Shown piece after piece: positions 3,905 to 21,677 of a DNA stretch of 44,557 nt (position 1 is the stretch's first letter; each line of letters starts with the position of its first letter). The notes under the pieces were generated by a model. The model did no database searches. It was not told the origin of the DNA and saw only the letters and a list, made by a program, of their open reading frames with translations. Source of the DNA: an uncultured Mycoplasmatota bacterium (GTDB taxonomy: Bacteria > Bacillota_I > Bacilli_A > RF39 > UBA660). The position numbers and the translations under genes were made by a program. The stretch spans positions 1 through 44,557 of the forward strand of contig USIB01000002.1 of NCBI GenBank assembly GCA_900554615.1. Reading direction: 5' to 3'.

Positions 3905-3933
3905 TCTATCCCTCCTTCCGCTTTTTCATTAAG

Positions 3934-3962
3934 ATTATATCATTATTTGTTATATTTTACAA
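3934..3962 (-). promoter_or_regulatory. Sigma-A type promoter for rpsU-yqeY
   Basis: Minus strand: TTGTAA (3962-3957), 17-nt spacer, TATAAT (3939-3934), about 30 nt upstream of the rpsU ATG. Confidence 0.55.
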
Positions 3963-4151
3963 GCAGTAAAGGATATTTTTTTGATAAAATGTGACTTTTT
4001 TTGCTATTTGGAGCAGAAAGGGCTACCACTCTACATAGTGGATGGGATTGTTTCTAACCTTTATATAGGGGATTTTCTGCTTCCTAGAGGATTAACCTCG
4101 TCCACAGACTTAACTTCCGACTGGCATGGCCGTACCTTTTTATTTTATTAT

Positions 4152-4325
4152 TTATCTTTGTATATCACACATTTTGTTCTCTGCTTTTCTTCTTATATAA
4201 TTTCCTAGAGACTCTCCTATCGAAAATATTACTTCAATTGTCTTGTAAATAGCGGTAAGCATTCCTGATGTTATTGAGTCTCCTCCACTTACATTTTGCA
4301 TTTCTTCATTTTTTAACTCTTTCAT
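4152..4325 (-). CDS. Double-glycine-leader bacteriocin precursor B (57 aa)
   Basis: Hand translation gives MKELKNEEMQNVSGG|DSITSGMLTAIYKTIEVIFSIGESLGNYIRRKAENKMCDIQR. SD AAAGGAGAAC precedes the ATG. It is not in the ORF track because it is shorter than 60 aa. Confidence 0.75.
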   Translation of the reverse strand: MKELKNEEMQNVSGGDSITSGMLTAIYKTIEVIFSIGESLGNYIRRKAENKMCDIQR

Positions 4326-4340
4326 TATGTTCTCCTTTCT

Positions 4341-4481
4341 TTAACTACATTTTTTAGGATTTGAATAGCCATATAATAATCCTGAAATGAAGGCTATAAC
4401 TGCACTTATTACTCCTCCTAGAACTACTGTATTAACTCCTCCATTTATTTCTTTCATTTCTTCTGTTTTTAATTCTCTCAT
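4341..4481 (-). CDS. Double-glycine-leader bacteriocin precursor A (46 aa)
   Basis: Hand translation gives MRELKTEEMKEINGG|VNTVVLGGVISAVIAFISGLLYGYSNPKKCS. SD AGGAAGTGA sits 5 nt before the ATG, which is 5 nt after the accessory-gene stop. The mature part is hydrophobic and rich in GxxxG motifs. Confidence 0.8.
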   Translation of the reverse strand: MRELKTEEMKEINGGVNTVVLGGVISAVIAFISGLLYGYSNPKKCS

Positions 4482-4485
4482 TTTT

Positions 4486-4911
4486 TCACTTCCTTAATAT
4501 ATATTTTATTATTTTTTTATTTTCTTTTATTAGCCTTAAATCTAATGTTAAATTATTATACTTATATTTATTTGGAAGATTTAATTCTAATATTATTATT
4601 TGATATGTTCTTTTATTATCTGTAATATATTTTCTATCTATTTCCTTTATTTTATATTTATATTCTTCTTTATCTATTATAATAGTATCATTTTTGGTTA
4701 TATATTTTATATCCTCTAGGGGGACAATTATTTTTATAGAGTAGTCTTCTTCGGATAATACTATTCCTCTTACTTTGTAATATATTTTATAATTAAATAG
4801 TATAGCAAATGTAATTAGGGAAAGTATTGTTATTATTATTATCATTATATAAATATATACATAGTATTTTATTTTTCTTTCTAGTATTATTTCTACATCT
4901 ATATGATTCAT
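4486..4911 (-). CDS. Miniature bacteriocin-export accessory protein (single TM, HlyD/LcnD-like role inferred)
   Basis: 141 aa with one N-terminal TM helix (YVYIYIMIIIITILSLITFAILF). The start overlaps the ABC stop (ATGA). The function is inferred from position only. Confidence 0.5.
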   Translation of the reverse strand: MNHIDVEIILERKIKYYVYIYIMIIIITILSLITFAILFNYKIYYKVRGIVLSEEDYSIKIIVPLEDIKYITKNDTIIIDKEEYKYKIKEIDRKYITDNKRTYQIIILELNLPNKYKYNNLTLDLRLIKENKKIIKYILRK

Positions 4912-6989
4912 TTATTTACCTCCTCTAGAGAGTATACTTCTCCATCTTCTATTTTTATTATTCTATTATATAGGTCATTATTATCTCTTCGATGAGATAC
5001 TATTATGAATGTTTTATTATGAAAATATGTGAATATATCTTGTAATATTTCTCTTTCTAATTTTATATCTATTTGATTTAGGCCTTCGTCTATCATTATT
5101 ATTTTACTACTCTTTAGTAATCCTCTTGCTAGTATTATTCTTTGTCTTTGTCCTCCACTTATATTTATTCCATTTTCTTCGATTAAATAGTCATATCCTA
5201 ATGCATTATCTTTTACGATATCATCTATATGAAGTATTTTACATATATTTAAGTAATCTATTTCACTTATATCTCTATTTAATAGGATATTATTTCTTAT
5301 GGTATCATTAAATAGTTGTTCATTCTGGGATATATATGTTATGTTTTTTCTTATATCTGATAGGCTATAATCGTTTATATCATAATTATTTATATATATT
5401 GTTTTTCTGTCCGCCTCTAAATATTTATATAATAATTTTAATATAGTTGATTTTCCTGAGCCAGAAGAACCTAGTAATAATACTCTATCTTTATCTTTAA
5501 TAAATAAATTTATATCTTTTAAGATTATATTTTTATTATTATAAGTATACTTTAGATTGGTTATTTTTATATTTCCATTTATTTCTAATATTTCTTTTTC
5601 GTTTATTTTTTCTTGGGATACTTCTAATAAATTATTTGCCCTTGTTATACTACTTTTTACATAATGATAATCATAAATTATATCTATTATATTTCTAACT
5701 GGATATATTAAATAGTTTGTCATAAAACTTATTGTTATATAGTCTCCTACTGTCATACTATTATTCATTATTTCTTTTAATATATAGAAGTTTATTAGTA
5801 GTATAGAAATATCCATTATATAATCTTTTAATAATACTATGATGTTATTTTGTTTATCTATATGATATTTTGTATTTAAAAGAGATGTATAATCTTTTGT
5901 AAACTTATATATTATCTTATCTTCTATATTTAATCCTTTTATGGCCTCAAAGTTATTTACGGCTTCTATTATATTTTTGTTGGTTTGGGCTACCTCTTCT
6001 TGAACTTTAACTGTTTGATATTTTATTTTTTTATTAAAGATTATTATTATTAAAAGGTATAATAAGTCTACTAGTAAATAGATATTTAATATTTGTTTAT
6101 TTATATTAGATATCACTATTATTGCCGCTACTAAAAGTAGTAAGTCTAATAATATGGTTACTATTAGTTTTGAAATAAATGTTTTTATGTTGGATAAATC
6201 GTTTATTCTTGATAATACTTCTGAAGATGTTCTATTTTTATAGTAATTATAGGGAAGTAAAATTACTTTAGTGAATGCTGTTAGAAGGATTTTTATATCT
6301 AGTTTTTGATTTAAATAGATTAAGAGATGATTTCTAATGTAATTTGTTATATTTTTTATTATTAACAAAATGAAGAATGCTATTGTTATTACTATTAGAT
6401 TATTTATCTCTGTATCTATTACTTTATCTAATATTATTTGTGAATAAAGACTAATTAAGCAAGATAGTAATGTTACTATTATGGATAGGATTATTATGAA
6501 GATTATTATTTTTTTATTGCTTGTTAATACTTTTATTATCTCTTTATTTAGACATTTGGTATTTTTATAATCTGGTAATATTCCTACTTTTTCTAATATC
6601 ATTATATAGCCTGTCCATATATTATTAAAGTCAAAGATATCCATTATTACTTTTCCTATTGCTGGGTCCATTATTAGTAGTTTATTATTATTTACTTTAT
6701 AGACTACGATAAAATGCATACTACTATTTTTGCTTACTTGACATATAAATGGTGAAGTTATTTCTTTTATTTTTTCTATTTCTTCTACCTTATAACTTTT
6801 GGCTATTAGTCCGATTTGATTAGAGGCTTCTTTGATATTATAGAATGTTGTTCCCTCTTTAGTTGTTTTTGTCATATCTATTATTTTTTCTTTAGATATG
6901 TTTCCTCCGTAGTAGCGGACTACTGATAAAAGACAAGATGCTCCGCAGTCTTTATTTCCTTCTTGTAAGACTATTAAACTTTTTTTCAT
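4908..6989 (-). CDS. Bacteriocin-processing ABC transporter with N-terminal C39 peptidase domain
   Basis: 693 aa. C39 catalytic context QEGNKDCGASCLL with downstream His (MHFIVVY), six-TM region, Walker A GSSGSGKST, signature ISGGQRQR, Walker B IIMIDEG. Confidence 0.9.
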   Translation of the reverse strand: MKKSLIVLQEGNKDCGASCLLSVVRYYGGNISKEKIIDMTKTTKEGTTFYNIKEASNQIGLIAKSYKVEEIEKIKEITSPFICQVSKNSSMHFIVVYKVNNNKLLIMDPAIGKVIMDIFDFNNIWTGYIMILEKVGILPDYKNTKCLNKEIIKVLTSNKKIIIFIIILSIIVTLLSCLISLYSQIILDKVIDTEINNLIVITIAFFILLIIKNITNYIRNHLLIYLNQKLDIKILLTAFTKVILLPYNYYKNRTSSEVLSRINDLSNIKTFISKLIVTILLDLLLLVAAIIVISNINKQILNIYLLVDLLYLLIIIIFNKKIKYQTVKVQEEVAQTNKNIIEAVNNFEAIKGLNIEDKIIYKFTKDYTSLLNTKYHIDKQNNIIVLLKDYIMDISILLINFYILKEIMNNSMTVGDYITISFMTNYLIYPVRNIIDIIYDYHYVKSSITRANNLLEVSQEKINEKEILEINGNIKITNLKYTYNNKNIILKDINLFIKDKDRVLLLGSSGSGKSTILKLLYKYLEADRKTIYINNYDINDYSLSDIRKNITYISQNEQLFNDTIRNNILLNRDISEIDYLNICKILHIDDIVKDNALGYDYLIEENGINISGGQRQRIILARGLLKSSKIIMIDEGLNQIDIKLEREILQDIFTYFHNKTFIIVSHRRDNNDLYNRIIKIEDGEVYSLEEVNK

Positions 6990-7019
6990 TTTACCTCCTC
7001 TTATTATTTTTTCTTATAT

Positions 7020-7163
7020 TTATCTTTTGGTTGTTAGTTCATTTAGTAGGTCCATTAGACAACACTTGCAATTTTCTCCTTGTTCTTCTGTTTCTTCTTG
7101 CTCATCTTTTTTCTCTTCTAGTTCTTTTGCTAATTCTTTTTCAATGAATATTGTTAAATACAT
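7020..7163 (-). CDS. 47-aa acidic peptide with CxCC motif, first ORF of the bacteriocin operon
   Basis: Hand translation gives MYLTIFIEKELAKELEEKKDEQEETEEQGENCKCCLMDLLNELTTKR. The 16 nt AGGAAGTGAAAAAATG (SD plus start) is identical to that of precursor A. It ends 30 nt before the ABC start. Confidence 0.45.
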   Translation of the reverse strand: MYLTIFIEKELAKELEEKKDEQEETEEQGENCKCCLMDLLNELTTKR

Positions 7164-7591
7164 TTTTTCACTTCCTTTCTTTTTGTTTTTTTATTGATAG
7201 ACACTTCGTCCCGTGCGCCTCACCTCCTTCATATATTAAATACTCCAATTTTTTCGTGTTTTGCCAAAATTACGATAATTTGTTTAAAAAAGTTGAAAAA
7301 GCATACAAAAAACGAACGTAAAATTAACTTCTAGTTAATAATTTGACTCATTTTTGACTATTTTGAGTTATCCACAGGGGGCCTAGAAAAACATGTTTTG
7401 AGGGATGTACCTATTTTATTGGTAAGATTATTACCTAAAATGTATATTTTATACCAATACTAAAAAGTGCAAATAGTAACCTCTATTTACCATCTTACAA
7501 AACTTTTTTATAAAAATATACTTAGATTTCACTGGAAACATAAACCCATTTATGATTGAAATAGATAAGAAAATGTTAAGAAAATAAATTA

Positions 7592-7862
7592 ATGAAAAGA
7601 TACGAAATTAGAGGTAAGCAGGTAATGTTAGATTGTGATGTAGTATTTCTTTTTGATTATCAAACTAAAAAATCAAATAGAAATGTAAAAAATAGTATTG
7701 AAAGGTTTCCTGAAAATTATTGCTTTAGGCTAAATGAATAAGAATATGAATTCTTGAGGTGAAAAAATTGCACTTCAAGTAACAACAAAAAAAGTCCATA
7801 CATTTCTGTATGAAACTTTTTTGACGACTCACGACTTCAAAAGTTTCCTGAGTACTAATCAA
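7592..7862 (+). pseudogene. Decayed ORF6N (KilA-N superfamily) gene, N-terminal part
   Basis: MKRYEIRGKQVMLDCDVVFLFDYQTKKSNRNVKNSIERFPENYCFRLNE*EYEFLR*KNCTSS matches the IRGxQVMLDxDLA..TK.LN..VKRNxxRFPxDFxFQL core of ORF6N as I recall it. Two in-frame stops (7739, 7760) are followed by loss of frame. Confidence 0.6.
7824..7862. repeat. 39-nt direct repeat, left copy, flanking the Abi gene
   Basis: ACGACTCACGACTTCAAAAGTTTCCTGAGTACTAATCAA matches 8782-8820 at 35 of 39 positions. Confidence 0.85.
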
Positions 7863-7885
7863 TATTATTATATACTTTTTTAATT

Positions 7886-8767
7886 TTAATTATTCCTATA
7901 AAATCCCATTAAATGTAAAATAATATCTATATTTACTGATTTTATTTTAATTTCTAATTTATTTATTTCCATATCTATTAATTTTTTTAATTCTAAACTT
8001 TTTTCTTCATCTAATAAAACTTGCATAGATTTCATAATCATATATAAATTTGTTGAATTATTTTTATTTATATAATTCTTATCAATATCTTTAAATGTTA
8101 ATAAAAATTTGCTATGAAACGAAAATAATCTATCATTATGAGCACATATATTTCTAATCATTGTCATATTCTTCATAATTTGTTTTAGTAATTTATCAGA
8201 TATTTTAAATTCTTTGCTTATCATTTGTCTATCTGATTGCTTTAGCATAGTATATAATCTACTTAATTCACCAAGTGTTAATATTTTTGTTAATACAAAT
8301 GGCGGAACAAACCCATATTCATTAATATAATGAGTCAATGCTTCATGTTTACCATTTTGTTTTTCTATTTCTTCTTTTATTTTTTCTATTGACTCCTCAA
8401 TAATAGAATTATTAACACTATTATCAAAGTTATCTACCACTAAATAATTTTGTATACCATACTTTTCTGATATAGTTTCTGCTAATAGAGATTTAATAAT
8501 AGTTTCAATATCAAGAATATATTTTAAAAATATAAATCTAATATTTTTATCAAATTCATATAAAGCATATATTTCATCAAAGGATACATTCTTTTTATAA
8601 TTATTATCAACAGTCTTAAAAACATCTTTATAACTATTTATAATTGAATAATAAGAATATTTTTTAATTTTATTTATTGTATCTTCTTTATTAGAAATAA
8701 TTACCCCTTTAGTAATCAAATATTCCACTAATTCATTTGGATTTTTATATTGTTTCAAGATTATCAC
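7886..8767 (-). CDS. Abi_2 family abortive-infection protein (AbiD/AbiF-like)
   Basis: 293 aa. LYEFDKNIRFIFLKYILDIETIIKS and IRNICAHNDRLF match the FD..LR...iE and RN.cAH motifs of the Abi_2 family. Confidence 0.8.
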   Translation of the reverse strand: MIILKQYKNPNELVEYLITKGVIISNKEDTINKIKKYSYYSIINSYKDVFKTVDNNYKKNVSFDEIYALYEFDKNIRFIFLKYILDIETIIKSLLAETISEKYGIQNYLVVDNFDNSVNNSIIEESIEKIKEEIEKQNGKHEALTHYINEYGFVPPFVLTKILTLGELSRLYTMLKQSDRQMISKEFKISDKLLKQIMKNMTMIRNICAHNDRLFSFHSKFLLTFKDIDKNYINKNNSTNLYMIMKSMQVLLDEEKSLELKKLIDMEINKLEIKIKSVNIDIILHLMGFYRNN

Positions 8768-17455: not shown

Positions 17456-19504
17456 TTATCTTTTTTTAACTTTCTTCTTACTAGAAGTATACTCTATATT
17501 TCTATTACTTTCTCTATTAAAAGTTATATCACCAGTATAAGTATCAACTTTAACTACTCTAACTCTAATAAAATCTCCTACTAATATTCTCTCATTAGAA
17601 TTAATACCATATAAAGAGAATCCATCTTTAAGATTATATTCATGTTTACTAATAAATACTTTACCCTCTATCATATTAGGAAGTAATACTTTAATATATT
17701 CATTACTAACCTCTGATACTAAACCATCAAAATCATAACCAATATATTTCTCCATATGTTCGGCTTTCCTAATATCAGTAGTACTTCTCTCTACTTTATC
17801 TGCTCTTCTCTCTGCACTAGTAGCCATATCTGCAAGTTTAGGTAGTAATACTAACCATTTCTTTCTAGCATAATTGTCTCCATAAGTAATAGAGTCCATT
17901 AATACTCTCTGATTAATTAAATCACATCTTCTAATGGGAGAACTAAAGGTAGCATAAGCAGGTACTCCTATGGCAAAATGTCCTATATTATAAGCACTAT
18001 ATTTTGCTTTTGATTGGCCTTTTATAGCATAACTATCAAGAATAACTCTCTCTTTACTATCTTTATATAAGTTTAATCTATCTATAATCTCTCTACTAGA
18101 GAAATCACTCATTTTAGAAGGATTATATCCTCTTTCTTTAAGTAAATGATTCCAAGAAGATAACTTATTTCTATTAGGCTCATCATGATTTCTAGCAATA
18201 AATGGTAGTTTATGTTTTATAAAATAATCAGTAAGAACTAAATTATGTAATATCATTAAAAACTCTATTAAATCTTCTGCTTTACCTTGATATCTCTTTT
18301 TTATATTCTTTGTCTTATTATTCTCTAATATAACCTTAACTTCACTACTGGTAAAATCTAAGAATCCATTCTTTAACATATCATCTTTAATAAGTTTAGC
18401 AACTTCATATAGTCTATCTAACTCTTTAGTATAGTCTTCATAACCCTCTATTACACTATTTCTTTCTAGATAACTATTAACTTCATCATAAGTCATACGC
18501 TTCCTACTATTAATAATTGAAGGACTTACTCTATAAGAGATAACTTTACCTTTATTATCTACCTTAACAACTGAAGTAATAGTAAATCTATCTTCTCCTG
18601 GTATTAATGAACATATTCCATTTGAAATATAATGATGTAAATAGGGATTAACCATACCAGGAGGGTATACGGATATTCCTCGATTCATTGTCTCATCCCA
18701 TATCTTAGTACCATCTTTGATATACTTACAGACATTAGCAATACTAATATAAATATCATCATTATATACTCCGATGGCGTCATCAAAGTCTTTTGTATCG
18801 TCTCCATCTATTGTTGTCATAGGAATATCTCTTAAATCAATAGTTCCTTCTCTTTTAGCAGTCTCTATTTCTCTACTCGTAACCTTATTTGGTATTTTCC
18901 TAAGTTCTTCCATATATTCATTACTAAAACTAATAGGAAAACCGTTTTCTAATAATATTTCTTTTTCTCTAGTACCTAAGTCATCTTTATGACCAATTAC
19001 TTCTTTAATTTCATTAGTCTTACCATCTATTAAAACTTTAGTACCAATGGGATATATTTTATCTAAAATAATATCTTCTTTATCTTTACTTCTAACTAAA
19101 TAGTATTTACCTTCCTTAATAACTTCTCCAATATAATTATGATATTCTCTTTTTAGTATCTTAACTACTTTAGCGGTAACTCCTGATGTGTCTACTAGTA
19201 CGATATCATGGTTTTCTAAAGACTTATGGTCTTTATATACTACATCTAATTCTGTTTTATCATCAAATACTACTATTGGTCCTTTTCTCTTAGTAACCTT
19301 AATCTTACCTTTTTTTAAAGTGGTATTAGAAGTAAGGGTATATTTTCCTTTCTTATCTCGAAAGATGATACCCTCTTCTTCTAATACTTTGATAGACATC
19401 ATAAATCTCCTGCTATCATGAGTATCTAATGCTTTAGATATATCTTCTAACTTCATAATTTTATTCTTTTTCATACTAAGTAATGTAACTATACTGCTTT
19501 CCAT
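17456..19504 (-). CDS. RNase R/RNase II family exoribonuclease, paralog 2
   Basis: 682 aa. RNB motif TTIDGDDTKDFDDAIGV, HFAIG...FSSPIRRCDLINQR (one residue shorter than the canonical RRYPDL), S1 domain and a Lys-rich tail. Confidence 0.85.
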   Translation of the reverse strand: MESSIVTLLSMKKNKIMKLEDISKALDTHDSRRFMMSIKVLEEEGIIFRDKKGKYTLTSNTTLKKGKIKVTKRKGPIVVFDDKTELDVVYKDHKSLENHDIVLVDTSGVTAKVVKILKREYHNYIGEVIKEGKYYLVRSKDKEDIILDKIYPIGTKVLIDGKTNEIKEVIGHKDDLGTREKEILLENGFPISFSNEYMEELRKIPNKVTSREIETAKREGTIDLRDIPMTTIDGDDTKDFDDAIGVYNDDIYISIANVCKYIKDGTKIWDETMNRGISVYPPGMVNPYLHHYISNGICSLIPGEDRFTITSVVKVDNKGKVISYRVSPSIINSRKRMTYDEVNSYLERNSVIEGYEDYTKELDRLYEVAKLIKDDMLKNGFLDFTSSEVKVILENNKTKNIKKRYQGKAEDLIEFLMILHNLVLTDYFIKHKLPFIARNHDEPNRNKLSSWNHLLKERGYNPSKMSDFSSREIIDRLNLYKDSKERVILDSYAIKGQSKAKYSAYNIGHFAIGVPAYATFSSPIRRCDLINQRVLMDSITYGDNYARKKWLVLLPKLADMATSAERRADKVERSTTDIRKAEHMEKYIGYDFDGLVSEVSNEYIKVLLPNMIEGKVFISKHEYNLKDGFSLYGINSNERILVGDFIRVRVVKVDTYTGDITFNRESNRNIEYTSSKKKVKKR

Positions 19505-19517
19505 TTAAACCCTCCTG

Positions 19518-21677
19518 TTAGTTGTTATTATTTTTTTTCTTTTTCCCTTTATTCTCCTCTTTCTCATCATATACTTCGAAGTCTATTTCTGATTTATCTT
19601 TATCTGCTCTTACTACTCTAATGGTAATTTTATCTCCAAAAGCATACTTCTTCTTACTCTTCTTTCCTACTAGAGCCATCATATCACTATCATATATGTA
19701 ATAGTCGCCTTTTATATTCTCTACTTTTATTAAGCCTTCTACTGTGTTATCTAGTTCTACAAAGATACCAAACTCTTGTACTCCGGAGATTATTCCTTCA
19801 TATATTTCTCCTATATGGTCCATCATATATTCGGCTTTCTTCATTTTGTCGACATCTCTTTCACAGTTCTGAGCGTCTTGTTCTCTAATTGAACAATGTT
19901 CACTCTCTATTGGTAAGGCTTCTCTTGCTTCTGCGATTACTTTTTCACTATAGTTGTAGTTGTAATTTTTTAATAGTCTATGTAATATTAAATCTGGATA
20001 TCTTCTGATAGGAGAAGTAAAATGGCTATAGCACTTACTTCCTAAGCCAAAGTGGCCTATATTTATATCAGAATAAACGGCTTTTGATTGACTTCGAATA
20101 GCCATATCGTGTAATACTCTAACTTCTGGTACTTCTTCTAGTTGTTTTAATATATGTTGTAAGTCTTTAGGAGAGTCTATCTTACTCTTTCCATTTACTA
20201 CATATCCATGAAGTGATAAGAACTTCATAAAGTCTCCTAGTCTCTTTTCATCTGGTTTATCATGAACACGATATATACCTGGTAGATTTTTATAGTAGAT
20301 TGAACTTGCTACTGTCTCATTAGCCGCTATCATAAAGTTCTCGATTAGTTCTTCACCTGTTCTTTGTACTCTAGCCTCTATCTCTATTGGATGACAAGCA
20401 TCATCTACTTTAATCTTAGCCTCAGTACTTTCAAACTCTATATATCCTCTACCTATCATTTTTTTTCTAAGTATCTTGGATAACTCTTCCATTAGTCTTA
20501 GAGTGTCTTCATATGGTTTATATTCATCACTAGGATTATTTTCTTCTAGTAACTTATTTACTTCTTCATATGTCATTTTCTTTCTACTTCTTATTATTGA
20601 CTTGAATATTTGATAACTTGTTATATTTCCTTTATTATCTATTATCATTTCACAAGTAAAGGCAAATCTATCTTCATTTTCATTTAGTGAACATATTCCA
20701 TTGGATAACTTATGAGGAAGCATTGGAAGTACTCTATCTACTAAGTAAACACTAGTACCACGAGAATATGCTTCTTCATCTAAGGCTGAGCCTTCTTTTA
20801 CATAATATGAAACATCAGCGATATGGACTCCTAGATGATATTTATTATCTTCACTTTTGGTTAATGATATTGCATCATCTATATCTTTTGTGTCTGCTCC
20901 ATCTATTGTAAATATTTCTTTATCTCTAAGGTCTCTTCTTCCACTTGATAATTCTTTTTTTATTTCTTCTTCGGTTAAATATGATGGAATACTATCTAGT
21001 TCTAGTGCTACTTCTTCTGGAAAGGTTGGACTAAAATTATATTCATAGACAAAGGATAGGATATCTACTCCAACATCATTTTTATGTCCTATTATTTTGA
21101 TTATCTTTCCTACTCTTTTTCCATCTTTTATTGGCTCTACGACTACTTTATGTCCTTCTACTGCTCCATTTAAGTTATCTCTTGGTATATAGATATTTGT
21201 TCCTTTTTTATCTGGTTTTACGAAATAGTCATTATCTATCTTTATTACTTCTCCTACTAAAGGGTCATAATTTCTTTTAATTACTTTAATTATCTTTCCT
21301 TCTGGTCTAGTCATATCTTTATTTAGATATTCAAATAATACTAAGTCTCCGTCCTCTGCACCATTTATATTCTTCTCATTTACATAGACATCTTTTGAAT
21401 CTTTATTTATTTCAATAAAACCAAATCCTTTATCGTTTAGTATAAGATTCCCCTTTACTAAGTGACTATTTTCTAGTAGTAGATACTTTTTCTTCTTTTC
21501 ACTATAATATAAAATGCCATCACTTACTAGACTATCTAATATATTCTCTAGGCTTTGATATTCTTCTATACTTGTAAGTCCAAGCATATCATTTAACTGC
21601 ATTATAGTAAGAGATGTATTTTCTGTTAATTTCTCTATTATTATTTCTTTCACTAAACTCTCCTCCTTTTTATTCAA
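19518..21677 (-). CDS. rnr: Ribonuclease R
   Basis: 719 aa. FTIDGADTKDIDDAISL, HFGL..HFTSPIRRYPDLILHR, S1 domain and a Lys/Asn-rich tail. It sits between secG and smpB as in other Bacillota. Confidence 0.9.
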   Translation of the reverse strand: MNKKEESLVKEIIIEKLTENTSLTIMQLNDMLGLTSIEEYQSLENILDSLVSDGILYYSEKKKKYLLLENSHLVKGNLILNDKGFGFIEINKDSKDVYVNEKNINGAEDGDLVLFEYLNKDMTRPEGKIIKVIKRNYDPLVGEVIKIDNDYFVKPDKKGTNIYIPRDNLNGAVEGHKVVVEPIKDGKRVGKIIKIIGHKNDVGVDILSFVYEYNFSPTFPEEVALELDSIPSYLTEEEIKKELSSGRRDLRDKEIFTIDGADTKDIDDAISLTKSEDNKYHLGVHIADVSYYVKEGSALDEEAYSRGTSVYLVDRVLPMLPHKLSNGICSLNENEDRFAFTCEMIIDNKGNITSYQIFKSIIRSRKKMTYEEVNKLLEENNPSDEYKPYEDTLRLMEELSKILRKKMIGRGYIEFESTEAKIKVDDACHPIEIEARVQRTGEELIENFMIAANETVASSIYYKNLPGIYRVHDKPDEKRLGDFMKFLSLHGYVVNGKSKIDSPKDLQHILKQLEEVPEVRVLHDMAIRSQSKAVYSDINIGHFGLGSKCYSHFTSPIRRYPDLILHRLLKNYNYNYSEKVIAEAREALPIESEHCSIREQDAQNCERDVDKMKKAEYMMDHIGEIYEGIISGVQEFGIFVELDNTVEGLIKVENIKGDYYIYDSDMMALVGKKSKKKYAFGDKITIRVVRADKDKSEIDFEVYDEKEENKGKKKKNNNN

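What the first reader, a model, noticed from the sequence alone, without database searches (positions are those of the whole stretch)
4152..6989. Un-called two-peptide (class IIb-like) bacteriocin locus: two GG-leader peptides, C39-ABC exporter, unusually small accessory protein, no visible immunity or regulatory genes
Two minus-strand ORFs shorter than 60 aa lie directly downstream of the C39-ABC transporter and accessory gene:
- 4341-4481: MRELKTEEMKEINGG|VNTVVLGGVISAVIAFISGLLYGYSNPKKCS
- 4152-4325: MKELKNEEMQNVSGG|DSITSGMLTAIYKTIEVIFSIGESLGNYIRRKAENKMCDIQR

Both have 15-aa leaders of the xELxxxEMxxIxGG type, their own SD sequences, and mature regions with GxxxG motifs (GLLYG, GESLG). Those motifs are the helix-helix hallmark of two-peptide bacteriocins.

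Three things are odd. Each mature peptide carries exactly one Cys close to its C-terminus, so an intermolecular disulfide is conceivable. The accessory protein is 141 aa, whereas LcnD/ComB-type partners are roughly three times longer. No small hydrophobic immunity ORF, inducer peptide or two-component system is visible between 3905 and 7600.
Basis: partly seen in the sequence, partly recalled or inferred. Interest (0 to 1): 0.65.

Follow-up and report, generated by a model that had tools for sequence, protein, structure and literature searches.

The report
Conserved two-peptide bacteriocin-like export cassette
An uncultured gut bacterium carries a compact four-gene unit that should cut and export two small partner peptides of the kind bacteria use to kill rivals; it is unusual in being inherited at one fixed chromosomal spot across many species and in having no self-protection gene.

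Summary
On the minus strand, 4152-6989 encodes a C39-peptidase ABC exporter (693 aa), a 141-aa partner protein and two double-glycine-leader peptides (46 and 57 aa). These are the only such peptides in the 44.5-kb window.

Both peptides are real genes. Their dN/dS is 0.0-0.5, and they have 158 and 466 homologue clusters. The GG site, one GxxxG motif and one C-terminal Cys are invariant in each.

The cassette lies directly upstream of rpsU-yqeY in every close relative and in about half of the distant ones. It co-diverges with yqeY (rho 0.82), so it is old and vertically inherited, not a mobile bacteriocin island.

The small "accessory" belongs to a family of ~140-aa proteins, near-threshold to NCBIfam MAG1140. 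It has no sequence match to HlyD/LcnD. Its model is a TM helix plus a beta-barrel that weakly resembles membrane-fusion proteins.

No immunity gene exists here. Distant relatives carry a third ORF, a membrane-anchored paralogue of peptide B, which is a plausible immunity gene lost in this clade.

Best reading: a class IIb-like two-peptide bacteriocin, a new variant. Antimicrobial activity and the disulfide idea are untested.

The parts
4908..6989 (-). Peptidase-containing ABC transporter (PCAT), 693 aa: C39 peptidase (res 6-134), 6-TM domain (162-431), ATPase (490-636)
   Evidence: Pfam hits: Peptidase_C39 9e-34, ABC_membrane 8e-35, ABC_tran 1e-24. Best solved relative is PCAT1 4RY2, E 5e-94 over residues 2-686, with the DCGA Cys motif, MHF His and MDP Asp aligned. 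Motif positions: Q9, C15, H92, D108, Walker A 507, signature 611, Walker B 630-636, H-loop 665.
4486..4911 (-). 141-aa partner ('accessory') protein: N-terminal TM helix plus ~100-aa extracytoplasmic beta-barrel. Its start overlaps the ABC stop (ATGA).
   Evidence: NCBIfam NF045999 MAG1140 family: 34.9 bits against a cut-off of 35; 15 of 29 relatives hit it. No Pfam hit in 34 family members. The family has 171 representative clusters, nearly all 135-150 aa. AF2 model pLDDT 83: helix 2-38, then strands. Among the best Foldseek PDB hits are the membrane-fusion proteins BesA, MacA, MexA and Spr0693, at E 0.03-0.3.
4341..4481 (-). pepA precursor, 46 aa. Leader 4437-4481 (MRELKTEEMKEINGG). Core 4344-4436 (31 aa, hydrophobic TM-like helix, GLLYG, NPKKCS tail).
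   Evidence: TIGR03949 26.6 bits, above the 21.5 cut-off. Invariant G14 G15 G34 G38 N41 P42 C45. dN/dS 0.06-0.5. 158 homologue clusters. Core mass 3170.7 Da, GRAVY 0.98.
4152..4325 (-). pepB precursor, 57 aa. Leader 4281-4325 (MKELKNEEMQNVSGG). Core 4155-4280 (42 aa, amphipathic helix, GESLG, IRRK, Cys in a flexible tail).
   Evidence: TIGR01847 leader model 17.8 bits, above the 15.7 cut-off. Invariant G14 G15 M22 G37 G41 R45 R46 C53. dN/dS 0.0-0.69, and 0.0-0.18 in close pairs. 466 homologue clusters. AF2 model: helix 15-48, tail 49-57 unstructured. Core mass 4766.5 Da, hydrophobic moment up to 0.59.
7020..7163 (-). 47-aa acidic ORF (CKCC) 30 nt upstream of the ABC gene. Whether it belongs to the unit is doubtful.
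   Evidence: Present in all six same-species contigs, with 2 non-synonymous and 0 synonymous differences, and absent from every other species. No family hit. Its RBS plus start (AGGAAGTGAAAAAATG) is identical to that of pepA.
3934..3962 (-). Promoter of rpsU (TTGTAA-17-TGnTATAAT). It marks the downstream boundary of the cassette.
   Evidence: The block CTTGTAAA...TATAAT...AAAGCGGAAGGAGGG is near-invariant in 9 species.

Best explanation
This is a self-contained, chromosomally fixed export cassette for a pair of partner peptides of the class IIb (two-peptide bacteriocin) type.

Shown from sequence:
- Two precursors carry canonical 15-aa double-glycine leaders.
- A PCAT1-like ABC transporter has an intact C39 catalytic set and intact ATPase motifs.
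- A small single-pass membrane protein is translationally coupled to the transporter.

Inferred mechanism:
1. The C39 domain binds each leader through the -4/-7/-12/-15 hydrophobic residues. It cuts after GG and the ABC core exports the cores. These are a 31-aa very hydrophobic helix (pepA, 3170.7 Da) and a 42-aa amphipathic helix (pepB, 4766.5 Da).
2. The 141-aa protein acts as a minimal adaptor of the exporter: a TM anchor plus a beta-barrel like that of membrane-fusion proteins, without the hairpin and lipoyl domains. It is not essential to the design, because some relatives lack it.
3. Outside the cell the two cores pair helix-to-helix through their invariant GxxxG motifs. They then insert into a target membrane, probably through a receptor, and permeabilise it.
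4. The invariant Cys in each C-terminal tail either forms an A-B disulfide or acts as a required free thiol. Which of these holds is open.

The producer's self-protection is not encoded at the locus in this clade. Deeper relatives have a membrane-anchored paralogue of pepB in the immunity position, so the window's clade most likely lost it. That clade would then rely on the absence or alteration of a receptor, on the exporter itself, or on a gene elsewhere.
For: - ORFs, leaders and RBSs.
- Domain and catalytic-residue tests.
- pepA is above the TIGR03949 cut-off, and 10 of 12 orthologues match it at E<=0.01.
- Both peptides are under purifying selection.
- GG, GxxxG and Cys are invariant.
- The same gene order ABC-acc-A-B occurs in 21 or more species-level MAGs.
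- The cassette is present upstream of rpsU in all close relatives (yqeY identity 74% or more) and about half of distant ones. ABC identity tracks yqeY identity (Spearman 0.82, n=37).
- Charges inside the two GxxxG motifs are complementary across 38 distinct A/B pairs. A has Asp where B has Arg/Lys/Gln, and A has His/Lys/neutral where B has Glu/Asp. There are 0 cases of +/+ and 2 of -/-.
- Distant relatives show the canonical five-gene class IIb layout. Their third ORF (50-59 aa) has one TM helix and a C-terminal half homologous to pepB (hhalign prob 87.5%, E 3.6e-6) and dN/dS of about 0.2.
- The class IIb cluster definition and the existence of one-TMD immunity proteins come from PMC6957408.
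- Accessory fold. BesA is a hairpin-less adaptor according to PMC8277102.
- pepB is modelled as one long helix with a flexible Cys-bearing tail.
Against: - No activity, transcription or cleavage data exist.
- There is no immunity gene, regulator or inducer at the locus in the window or in about 25 close relatives. A dedicated immunity gene is part of the class IIb cluster definition.
- Deep vertical conservation at a housekeeping site is atypical for bacteriocin loci.
- The cores are only weakly cationic (net +2 and +1; pI 9.1 and 8.1). By my own recollection, typical class IIb peptides are more basic.
- The TIGR03949 match of pepA covers the leader and only the first half of the core (residues 3-30). 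pepB matches known families only in its leader.
- Neither core resembles any solved two-peptide bacteriocin.
- The fold similarity of the accessory protein is weak (E above 0.01, TM 0.35-0.47).
- The charge covariation rests on few independent lineage splits.
Confidence: 0.65

Rival explanations
1. The exported pair is not a weapon. It would be a lineage-specific signal or a self-used membrane component, with the PCAT used only as a leader-dependent exporter or insertase.
For: - The locus is fixed next to rpsU-yqeY, is vertically inherited, and shows no immunity gene or mobility.
- There are no plasmid or phage matches.
- The cassette G+C (22.4%) is close to that of the window (25.9%).
- The net charge of the cores is low.
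- PCATs are known to export pheromones as well as bacteriocins (PMC7018657).
Against: - No sensor kinase, response regulator or Rgg-type regulator lies next to the cassette in any locus whose surroundings were read.
- The 31-aa TM-like and 42-aa amphipathic cores with GxxxG are unlike known pheromones.
- The cassette is absent from about half of the distant relatives. It is decayed in one complete MAG chromosome (L060) and carries a premature stop in L006, so it is dispensable.
- An immunity-like third ORF exists in relatives.
Confidence: 0.15
2. The pair is a membrane-active toxin aimed at non-bacterial or very distant targets, such as host or eukaryotic membranes or unrelated phyla. The producer would be intrinsically insensitive and would need no immunity gene.
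For: - Immunity is absent from two of the three architectures.
- The carriers are host-associated, small-genome organisms related to Mollicutes. The complete MAG chromosome CP091726 is 1.46 Mb, and one relative is classified under Mycoplasmatota.
- The named relatives of the transporter and accessory families are Mycoplasma families (NF045998, NF045999).
Against: - There is no direct evidence.
- The third ORF in relatives implies that self-toxicity is an issue at least there.
- By my own recollection, class IIb peptides usually hit close relatives through specific receptors.
Confidence: 0.1
3. The peptide ORFs are relics or chance ORFs downstream of a transporter that now serves another substrate.
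For: There is no immunity gene. Some relatives show decay (L006 with an in-frame TAG, L060 fragmented).
Against: - dN/dS is well below 1.
- Functional residues are invariant across hundreds of clusters.
- The exact peptides recur on 270 and 415 contigs.
- There are zero differences in 4152-4481 among seven same-species copies, against about 50 differences across the 3.1-kb unit. These copies were picked for an identical pepB, so only the pepA part is independent.
Confidence: 0.03

Closest known systems
Class IIb linear two-peptide bacteriocin clusters (lactococcin G, plantaricin EF/JK, carnobacteriocin XY)
   Same: - Two adjacent GG-leader precursors.
- A GxxxG motif in each core, with predicted helical cores.
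- A C39-ABC exporter and a gene in the accessory position.
- Relatives carry a one-TM small ORF right after the second peptide, as CbnZ does (PMC6957408).
   Different: - No immunity gene in this clade.
- No three-component regulation.
- The cores have no sequence similarity to any solved or NCBIfam-modelled class IIb core beyond the leader region.
- One invariant Cys lies near each C-terminus.
- The locus is fixed in the chromosome and vertically inherited across a deep clade, rather than being strain-variable or plasmid-borne.
PCAT1 of Clostridium thermocellum (PDB 4RY2) and ComA
   Same: The match is full-length (E 5e-94 to PCAT1, 1e-77 to ComA). The C39 catalytic residues and ATPase motifs are conserved.
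   Different: Scores fall below NCBI's curated cut-offs for TIGR01193 (378 vs 524) and NF045998 (312 vs 500). The transporter is paired here with a 141-aa partner. By my own recollection, PCAT1 works alone and ComA works with the ~450-aa ComB.
NCBIfam NF045999 'MAG1140 family protein' with NF045998 'Mbov_0121 family peptidase-domain ABC transporter' (Mycoplasma)
   Same: These are the only named families that match the small partner protein (34.9 bits, full length 15-139) and that also match the transporter. The pairing of a small protein with a PCAT appears to be shared with Mollicutes.
   Different: Both scores are below the curated cut-offs. No function is published for either family: the only papers found list Mbov_0121 as a VFDB hit. 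Whether the Mycoplasma loci carry A/B-type peptides could not be checked.
Membrane-fusion / periplasmic adaptor proteins (HlyD, LcnD, ComB; hairpin-less BesA)
   Same: An N-terminal TM anchor and a beta-barrel domain. Foldseek ranks BesA, MacA, MexA and Spr0693 among its best hits.
   Different: About one third of the length, with no alpha-hairpin and no lipoyl domain. No HlyD-family Pfam hit in 34 members. The structural match is weak (E 0.03-0.3).

Membership tests
Class IIb two-peptide bacteriocin cluster (definition as in PMC6957408) | Two adjacent precursor genes with N-terminal double-glycine leaders | tested here: met
   The leaders end in GG, with hydrophobic residues at -4/-7/-12/-15. 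They are the only two such ORFs in the window.
Class IIb two-peptide bacteriocin cluster | GxxxG (or GxxxG-like) motif in each core peptide | tested here: met
   G34/G38 of pepA and G37/G41 of pepB are invariant.
Class IIb two-peptide bacteriocin cluster | Dedicated ABC transporter that removes the leader (C39 peptidase domain) | tested here: met
Class IIb two-peptide bacteriocin cluster | Accessory protein for secretion | tested here: inconclusive
   A gene sits in the accessory position and is translationally coupled to the transporter. It is 141 aa and not homologous by sequence to LcnD/ComB. Some relatives lack it altogether.
Class IIb two-peptide bacteriocin cluster | Dedicated immunity gene next to the structural genes | tested here: not met
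   No candidate lies in 3905-7600. An HMM built from the relatives' third ORF finds only pepB itself in the 44.5-kb window. A candidate is present in 12 distant loci.
Class IIb two-peptide bacteriocin cluster | Both peptides needed together for optimal antimicrobial activity | not testable with these tools
   This needs synthetic or purified peptides. Indirect support for A-B contact comes from charge covariation in the GxxxG motifs.
NCBIfam TIGR03949 class IIb bacteriocin, lactobin A/cerein 7B family | Score at or above the curated cut-off of 21.5 bits | tested here: met
   pepA scores 26.6 bits, but the match covers only residues 3-30 (the leader and half of the core). 10 of 12 orthologues match at E<=0.01. 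pepB scores 16.7 bits, which is below the cut-off and confined to the leader.
NCBIfam NF038034 / NF038035 lactococcin G-beta / -alpha families | Score at or above the curated cut-off of 37 bits | tested here: not met
   pepA scores 23.6 bits and pepB 15.2 bits.
Peptide cleavage/export ABC transporter (TIGR01193; PCAT) | C39 + 6-TM + ABC architecture with catalytic Cys/His/Asp | tested here: met
   The whole-protein score of 378 bits is below the curated 523.85 bits, so this is an outlying member.
NCBIfam NF045999 MAG1140 family | Score at or above the curated cut-off of 35 bits | tested here: inconclusive
   34.9 bits, E 1.4e-8, covering 15-139 of 141 aa. 15 of 29 relatives hit at E of 1e-3 or better.
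HlyD/LcnD/ComB membrane-fusion accessory proteins | HlyD-family domains (lipoyl, alpha-hairpin, beta-barrel) detectable by sequence | tested here: not met
   0 of 34 family members hit any HlyD Pfam model, and no PDB sequence match was found. Only a weak fold resemblance of the beta-barrel was seen.

The most novel reading that the evidence does not exclude
The cassette would be an ancient, vertically inherited two-peptide system of a Mollicutes-related gut lineage with three features.
1. The mature peptides act as a covalent A-B heterodimer, joined by a disulfide between the invariant C-terminal cysteines and docked through charge-matched GxxxG motifs.
2. Immunity, where present, is a membrane-anchored paralogue of peptide B that acts as a decoy partner for peptide A.
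3. The window's clade has dispensed with that decoy, which implies a target outside its own kind.
Probability: 0.15. Interest if true: 0.75.

Novelty: new variant of a known kind. Interest (0 to 1): 0.5.

Why it matters
Three points would matter if this is right.

- **An untapped peptide family.** The cassette would add a widespread family to the class IIb bacteriocins: hundreds of sequence clusters in human and animal gut metagenomes. It comes from a lineage with no cultured producers, and its cores are unrelated to characterised ones.
- **A minimal exporter partner.** The ~140-aa partner protein family has no Pfam model and is shared with Mycoplasma. It would be the smallest adaptor known for a peptidase-ABC exporter, and so useful for understanding what these accessory proteins actually do.
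- **Natural comparisons for open questions.** The family exists in three layouts: with the accessory and the third ORF, with the accessory only, and with neither. These give ready-made comparisons for two questions, namely what accessory proteins contribute and how two-peptide immunity works. The pepB-like third ORF suggests a testable decoy mechanism.

Tried and rejected
- Rfam found nothing in the 250-nt spacer after pepB. Its fold is not unusual (z -1.26), and a three-sequence alifold was weak.
- No intrinsic terminator was found after pepB. The promoter scan is uninformative in this A+T-rich DNA (40 sites found against 32.5 expected).
- Aligning the regions upstream of the ABC gene showed no conserved repeat or operator.
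A narrower third-ORF scan added only one new locus and no orphan copies.
- The Mycoplasma loci behind NF045998 and NF045999 could not be fetched. The only papers that mention Mbov_0121 list it as a VFDB hit.
- The IIBacFinder paper on gut class II bacteriocins has no text on this lineage and no held supplements.
- Abi_2 at 7886-8767 was rejected as an immunity gene. It is PF07751 (abortive-infection type), not the CPBP/Abi protease family, and it is strain-variable.
- The 47-aa upstream ORF was rejected as immunity. It is acidic, has no TM segment and is species-specific.
Full report
**What is there.**
The minus strand of 4152-6989 holds four tightly packed genes:
- a 693-aa ABC transporter (4908-6989);
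- a 141-aa protein (4486-4911), whose ATG overlaps the transporter's TGA stop;
- a 46-aa ORF (pepA, 4341-4481);
- a 57-aa ORF (pepB, 4152-4325).

Each small ORF has an SD-like sequence and a 15-aa leader ending in GG. Hydrophobic residues sit at -4, -7, -12 and -15. A pattern scan of all six frames found no other such ORF in the 44.5-kb window.

TGA is used as a stop codon, so the organism uses the standard code. The window is ordinary chromosome of a very A+T-rich Firmicute. It holds rpsU, yqeY, a PBP2-type protein, RNase R paralogues, ProRS, YqfD and AddAB-like genes. G+C is 25.9% for the window and 22.4% for the cassette.

**Are the small ORFs genes?**
Yes. Eleven species-level MAGs found through the transporter carry the same four genes in the same order. 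Ten more found through the 141-aa protein do the same.

Nei-Gojobori estimates give dN/dS of 0.06-0.5 for pepA and 0.0-0.69 for pepB. Close pairs give 0.0-0.28. Profile searches of 5.8 billion proteins return the following cluster counts:

| Protein | Homologue clusters |
|---|---|
| pepA | 158 |
| pepB | 466 |
| 141-aa protein | 400 |

Almost none of these carry a name. One pepA homologue is named 'class IIb bacteriocin, lactobin A/cerein 7B family' by NCBI, and another is called 'bacteriocin-like protein' by JGI. The exact window peptides occur as called genes on 415 and 270 public contigs. 'Un-called' therefore does not hold for public assemblies in general.

Invariant columns are as follows:
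- pepA: the GG site, G34/G38 (GxxxG), N41, P42 and C45.
- pepB: the GG site, M22, G37/G41, R45, R46 and C53.

The C-terminal Cys is kept in essentially all 240 listed homologues. A pepA subfamily has a second Cys inside the helix.

**The exporter.**
Pfam finds Peptidase_C39, ABC_membrane and ABC_tran. The best solved relative is PCAT1 (4RY2, E 5e-94, full length), followed by ComA.

The catalytic Gln9, Cys15, His92 and Asp108 are in place, as are Walker A, the signature motif, Walker B and the H-loop. Scores are below NCBI's curated cut-offs for TIGR01193 and for the Mycoplasma family NF045998. The protein is therefore an outlying but complete PCAT.

**The 141-aa protein.**
It is not a shortened LcnD. 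An exhaustive HMMER search of 1.84 billion representatives finds 171 clusters, nearly all 135-150 aa, and no long HlyD-type protein. None of 34 diverse members hits any Pfam model.

The only named relative is NCBIfam NF045999, 'MAG1140 family' (Mycoplasma). The window protein scores 34.9 bits against a cut-off of 35, and 15 of 29 relatives also hit it.

AlphaFold (pLDDT 83) gives an N-terminal TM helix followed by a small beta-barrel. Foldseek against the PDB gives no hit below E 0.01, and the single best hit is an unrelated helicase. The list is nevertheless enriched in membrane-fusion/adaptor proteins: BesA, MacA, MexA, Spr0693 and ZneB. BesA is itself a hairpin-less adaptor (PMC8277102).

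I read the 141-aa protein as a minimal adaptor of the exporter, on weak evidence. A whole group of relatives has ABC-pepA-pepB with no such gene, so it is dispensable to the design.

**Where the cassette sits and how old it is.**
I anchored a genome scan on YqeY. Every close relative (YqeY identity 74% or more) has the cassette immediately upstream of rpsU-yqeY. In three MAGs it lies on another contig instead; in two of these it is next to hrcA-grpE.

About half of the more distant relatives (54-65% identity) have it at the same site, and the rest lack it. Transporter identity tracks YqeY identity (Spearman 0.82, n=37).

There is no plasmid or phage match. rpsU keeps its own near-invariant promoter, so the cassette is a separate transcription unit.

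Within the window's species, the five ORFs from the 47-aa ORF to pepB are constant. The slot further upstream varies between strains: Abi_2, ORF6N or another gene. One complete MAG chromosome has a decayed copy (L060), and one MAG has an in-frame stop in pepB (L006).

The locus is therefore old, vertically inherited and dispensable. That profile is unusual for a bacteriocin, but it does not fit a housekeeping function either.

**Immunity.**
The wider comparison adds context.

Twelve distant loci carry a third ORF of 50-59 aa that overlaps the pepB stop. It has a basic N-terminus, one TM helix, and then the motif GxxxG[ST]xxR...C. It is under purifying selection, with dN/dS of about 0.2.

Its C-terminal half is homologous to the pepB core (hhalign probability 87.5%, E 3.6e-6). 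The GxxxG, Arg and Cys align with the same spacing. An HMM built from it finds pepB peptides as its next-best hits. It finds nothing else in the window.

With this ORF, those loci have the canonical five genes of a class IIb cluster as defined in PMC6957408. That paper also shows that such immunity proteins can have a single TM segment (abstract).

I infer that the third ORF is the immunity gene, possibly acting as a membrane-anchored decoy for pepA. I also infer that the window's clade lost it. Both inferences are untested.

**Do A and B touch?**
Across 38 distinct A/B pairs, the residue before the second Gly of pepA's GxxxG is charge-complementary to the residue after the first Gly of pepB's GxxxG:
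- Asp in pepA goes with Arg, Lys or Gln in pepB.
- His, Lys or a neutral residue in pepA goes with Glu or Asp in pepB.
- There are no +/+ pairs and two -/- pairs.

This is what a GxxxG-mediated helix pair predicts. It rests on few independent lineage splits.

AlphaFold models pepB as a leader helix, a break at GG, and one long helix (residues 15-48). Cys53 lies in a flexible tail. pepA's Cys follows an invariant Asn-Pro. Both cysteines are thus in flexible tails after the motifs, which is compatible with a disulfide but does not prove one.

The carriers are found in gut metagenomes, a presumably reducing habitat, and some pepA variants have extra Cys. A required free thiol is therefore an equally good reading. 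I recall lactococcin B as a thiol-activated precedent, but did not verify this here.

**Comparison with known families.**
pepA passes the curated cut-off of TIGR03949, but mainly through its leader and the first half of its core. pepB matches only leader models. The lactococcin G models are not reached. Neither core resembles any solved structure.

The system works like a class IIb bacteriocin cluster and meets four of its six defining features here. The immunity feature is tested and not met in this window, and the activity feature is untestable. I therefore call it class IIb-like and a new variant, not a member of any characterised family.

**Verdict.**
- Confidence that the cassette cleaves and exports two partner peptides is about 0.85.
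- Confidence in the full best explanation, including that the pair is antimicrobial, is about 0.65.
- Interest is moderate (0.5). The kind of system is well known. Four things are new and testable: the deep fixed conservation, the orphan small-adaptor family shared with Mycoplasma, the invariant Cys pair, and the pepB-derived candidate immunity gene in relatives.

Noticed in passing
L078:4457-4633, L074:4481-4645, L091:4497-4664, L103:4477-4656, L101:3621-3773 and seven more loci: A third small ORF (50-59 aa) overlaps the pepB stop in distant relatives. It has one TM helix and a C-terminal half homologous to the pepB core, with GxxxG, Arg and Cys at the same spacing. It is a candidate immunity gene derived from the bacteriocin peptide itself, and it is absent from the window's clade.
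   Followed up: yes
L072, L075, L077, L079, L085, L086, L096, L099, L100 (between the ABC gene and rpsU): A third architecture has only ABC-pepA-pepB, with no 141-aa gene and no third ORF. In these loci pepA has an SxxxG-like motif ending in Asp-Gly, and pepB has G(K/R)SLG.
   Followed up: partly
window 3985-4140 (-): A ~150-nt G+C-richer non-coding element lies between pepB and the rpsU promoter. Its core, GTCGGAAKTTAWGTCTGTGGA, is conserved in the window's species and L009 (a near-identical stretch in L021), and absent from other relatives. It has no Rfam match and no convincing structure. Its function is unknown.
   Followed up: partly
window 7020-7163 (-): A 47-aa acidic ORF with a CKCC motif lies 30 nt upstream of the ABC gene. 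Its 16-nt RBS plus start is identical to that of pepA. It is found only in this species. The differences seen are both non-synonymous, so coding status is unproven.
   Followed up: partly
window 7592-8767: A strain-variable slot lies between the cassette and the PBP2 gene. In the window it holds an Abi_2 (abortive-infection type) gene and a 49-aa fragment that I recognised by eye as ORF6N-like (not tested here). Other strains have a full ORF6N gene or an unrelated 190-aa gene.
   Followed up: partly
L006:8680-8850; L060:2930-4780: There are signs of decay in some genomes. In L006 an in-frame TAG follows directly after the pepB leader. In the complete MAG chromosome CP091726 (L060), the ABC and accessory genes are fragmented, pepA has lost its Cys and pepB has lost its leader.
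   Followed up: no
window 4326-4343: pepA and pepB are in the same reading frame, separated only by TAA and five codons. A single stop-codon read-through would yield a fused A-linker-B precursor.
   Followed up: no
window 17456-21677 (-): Two adjacent RNB-domain (RNase II/R family) genes of 682 and 719 aa. Only the second has the cold-shock, OB and S1 domains.
   Followed up: no
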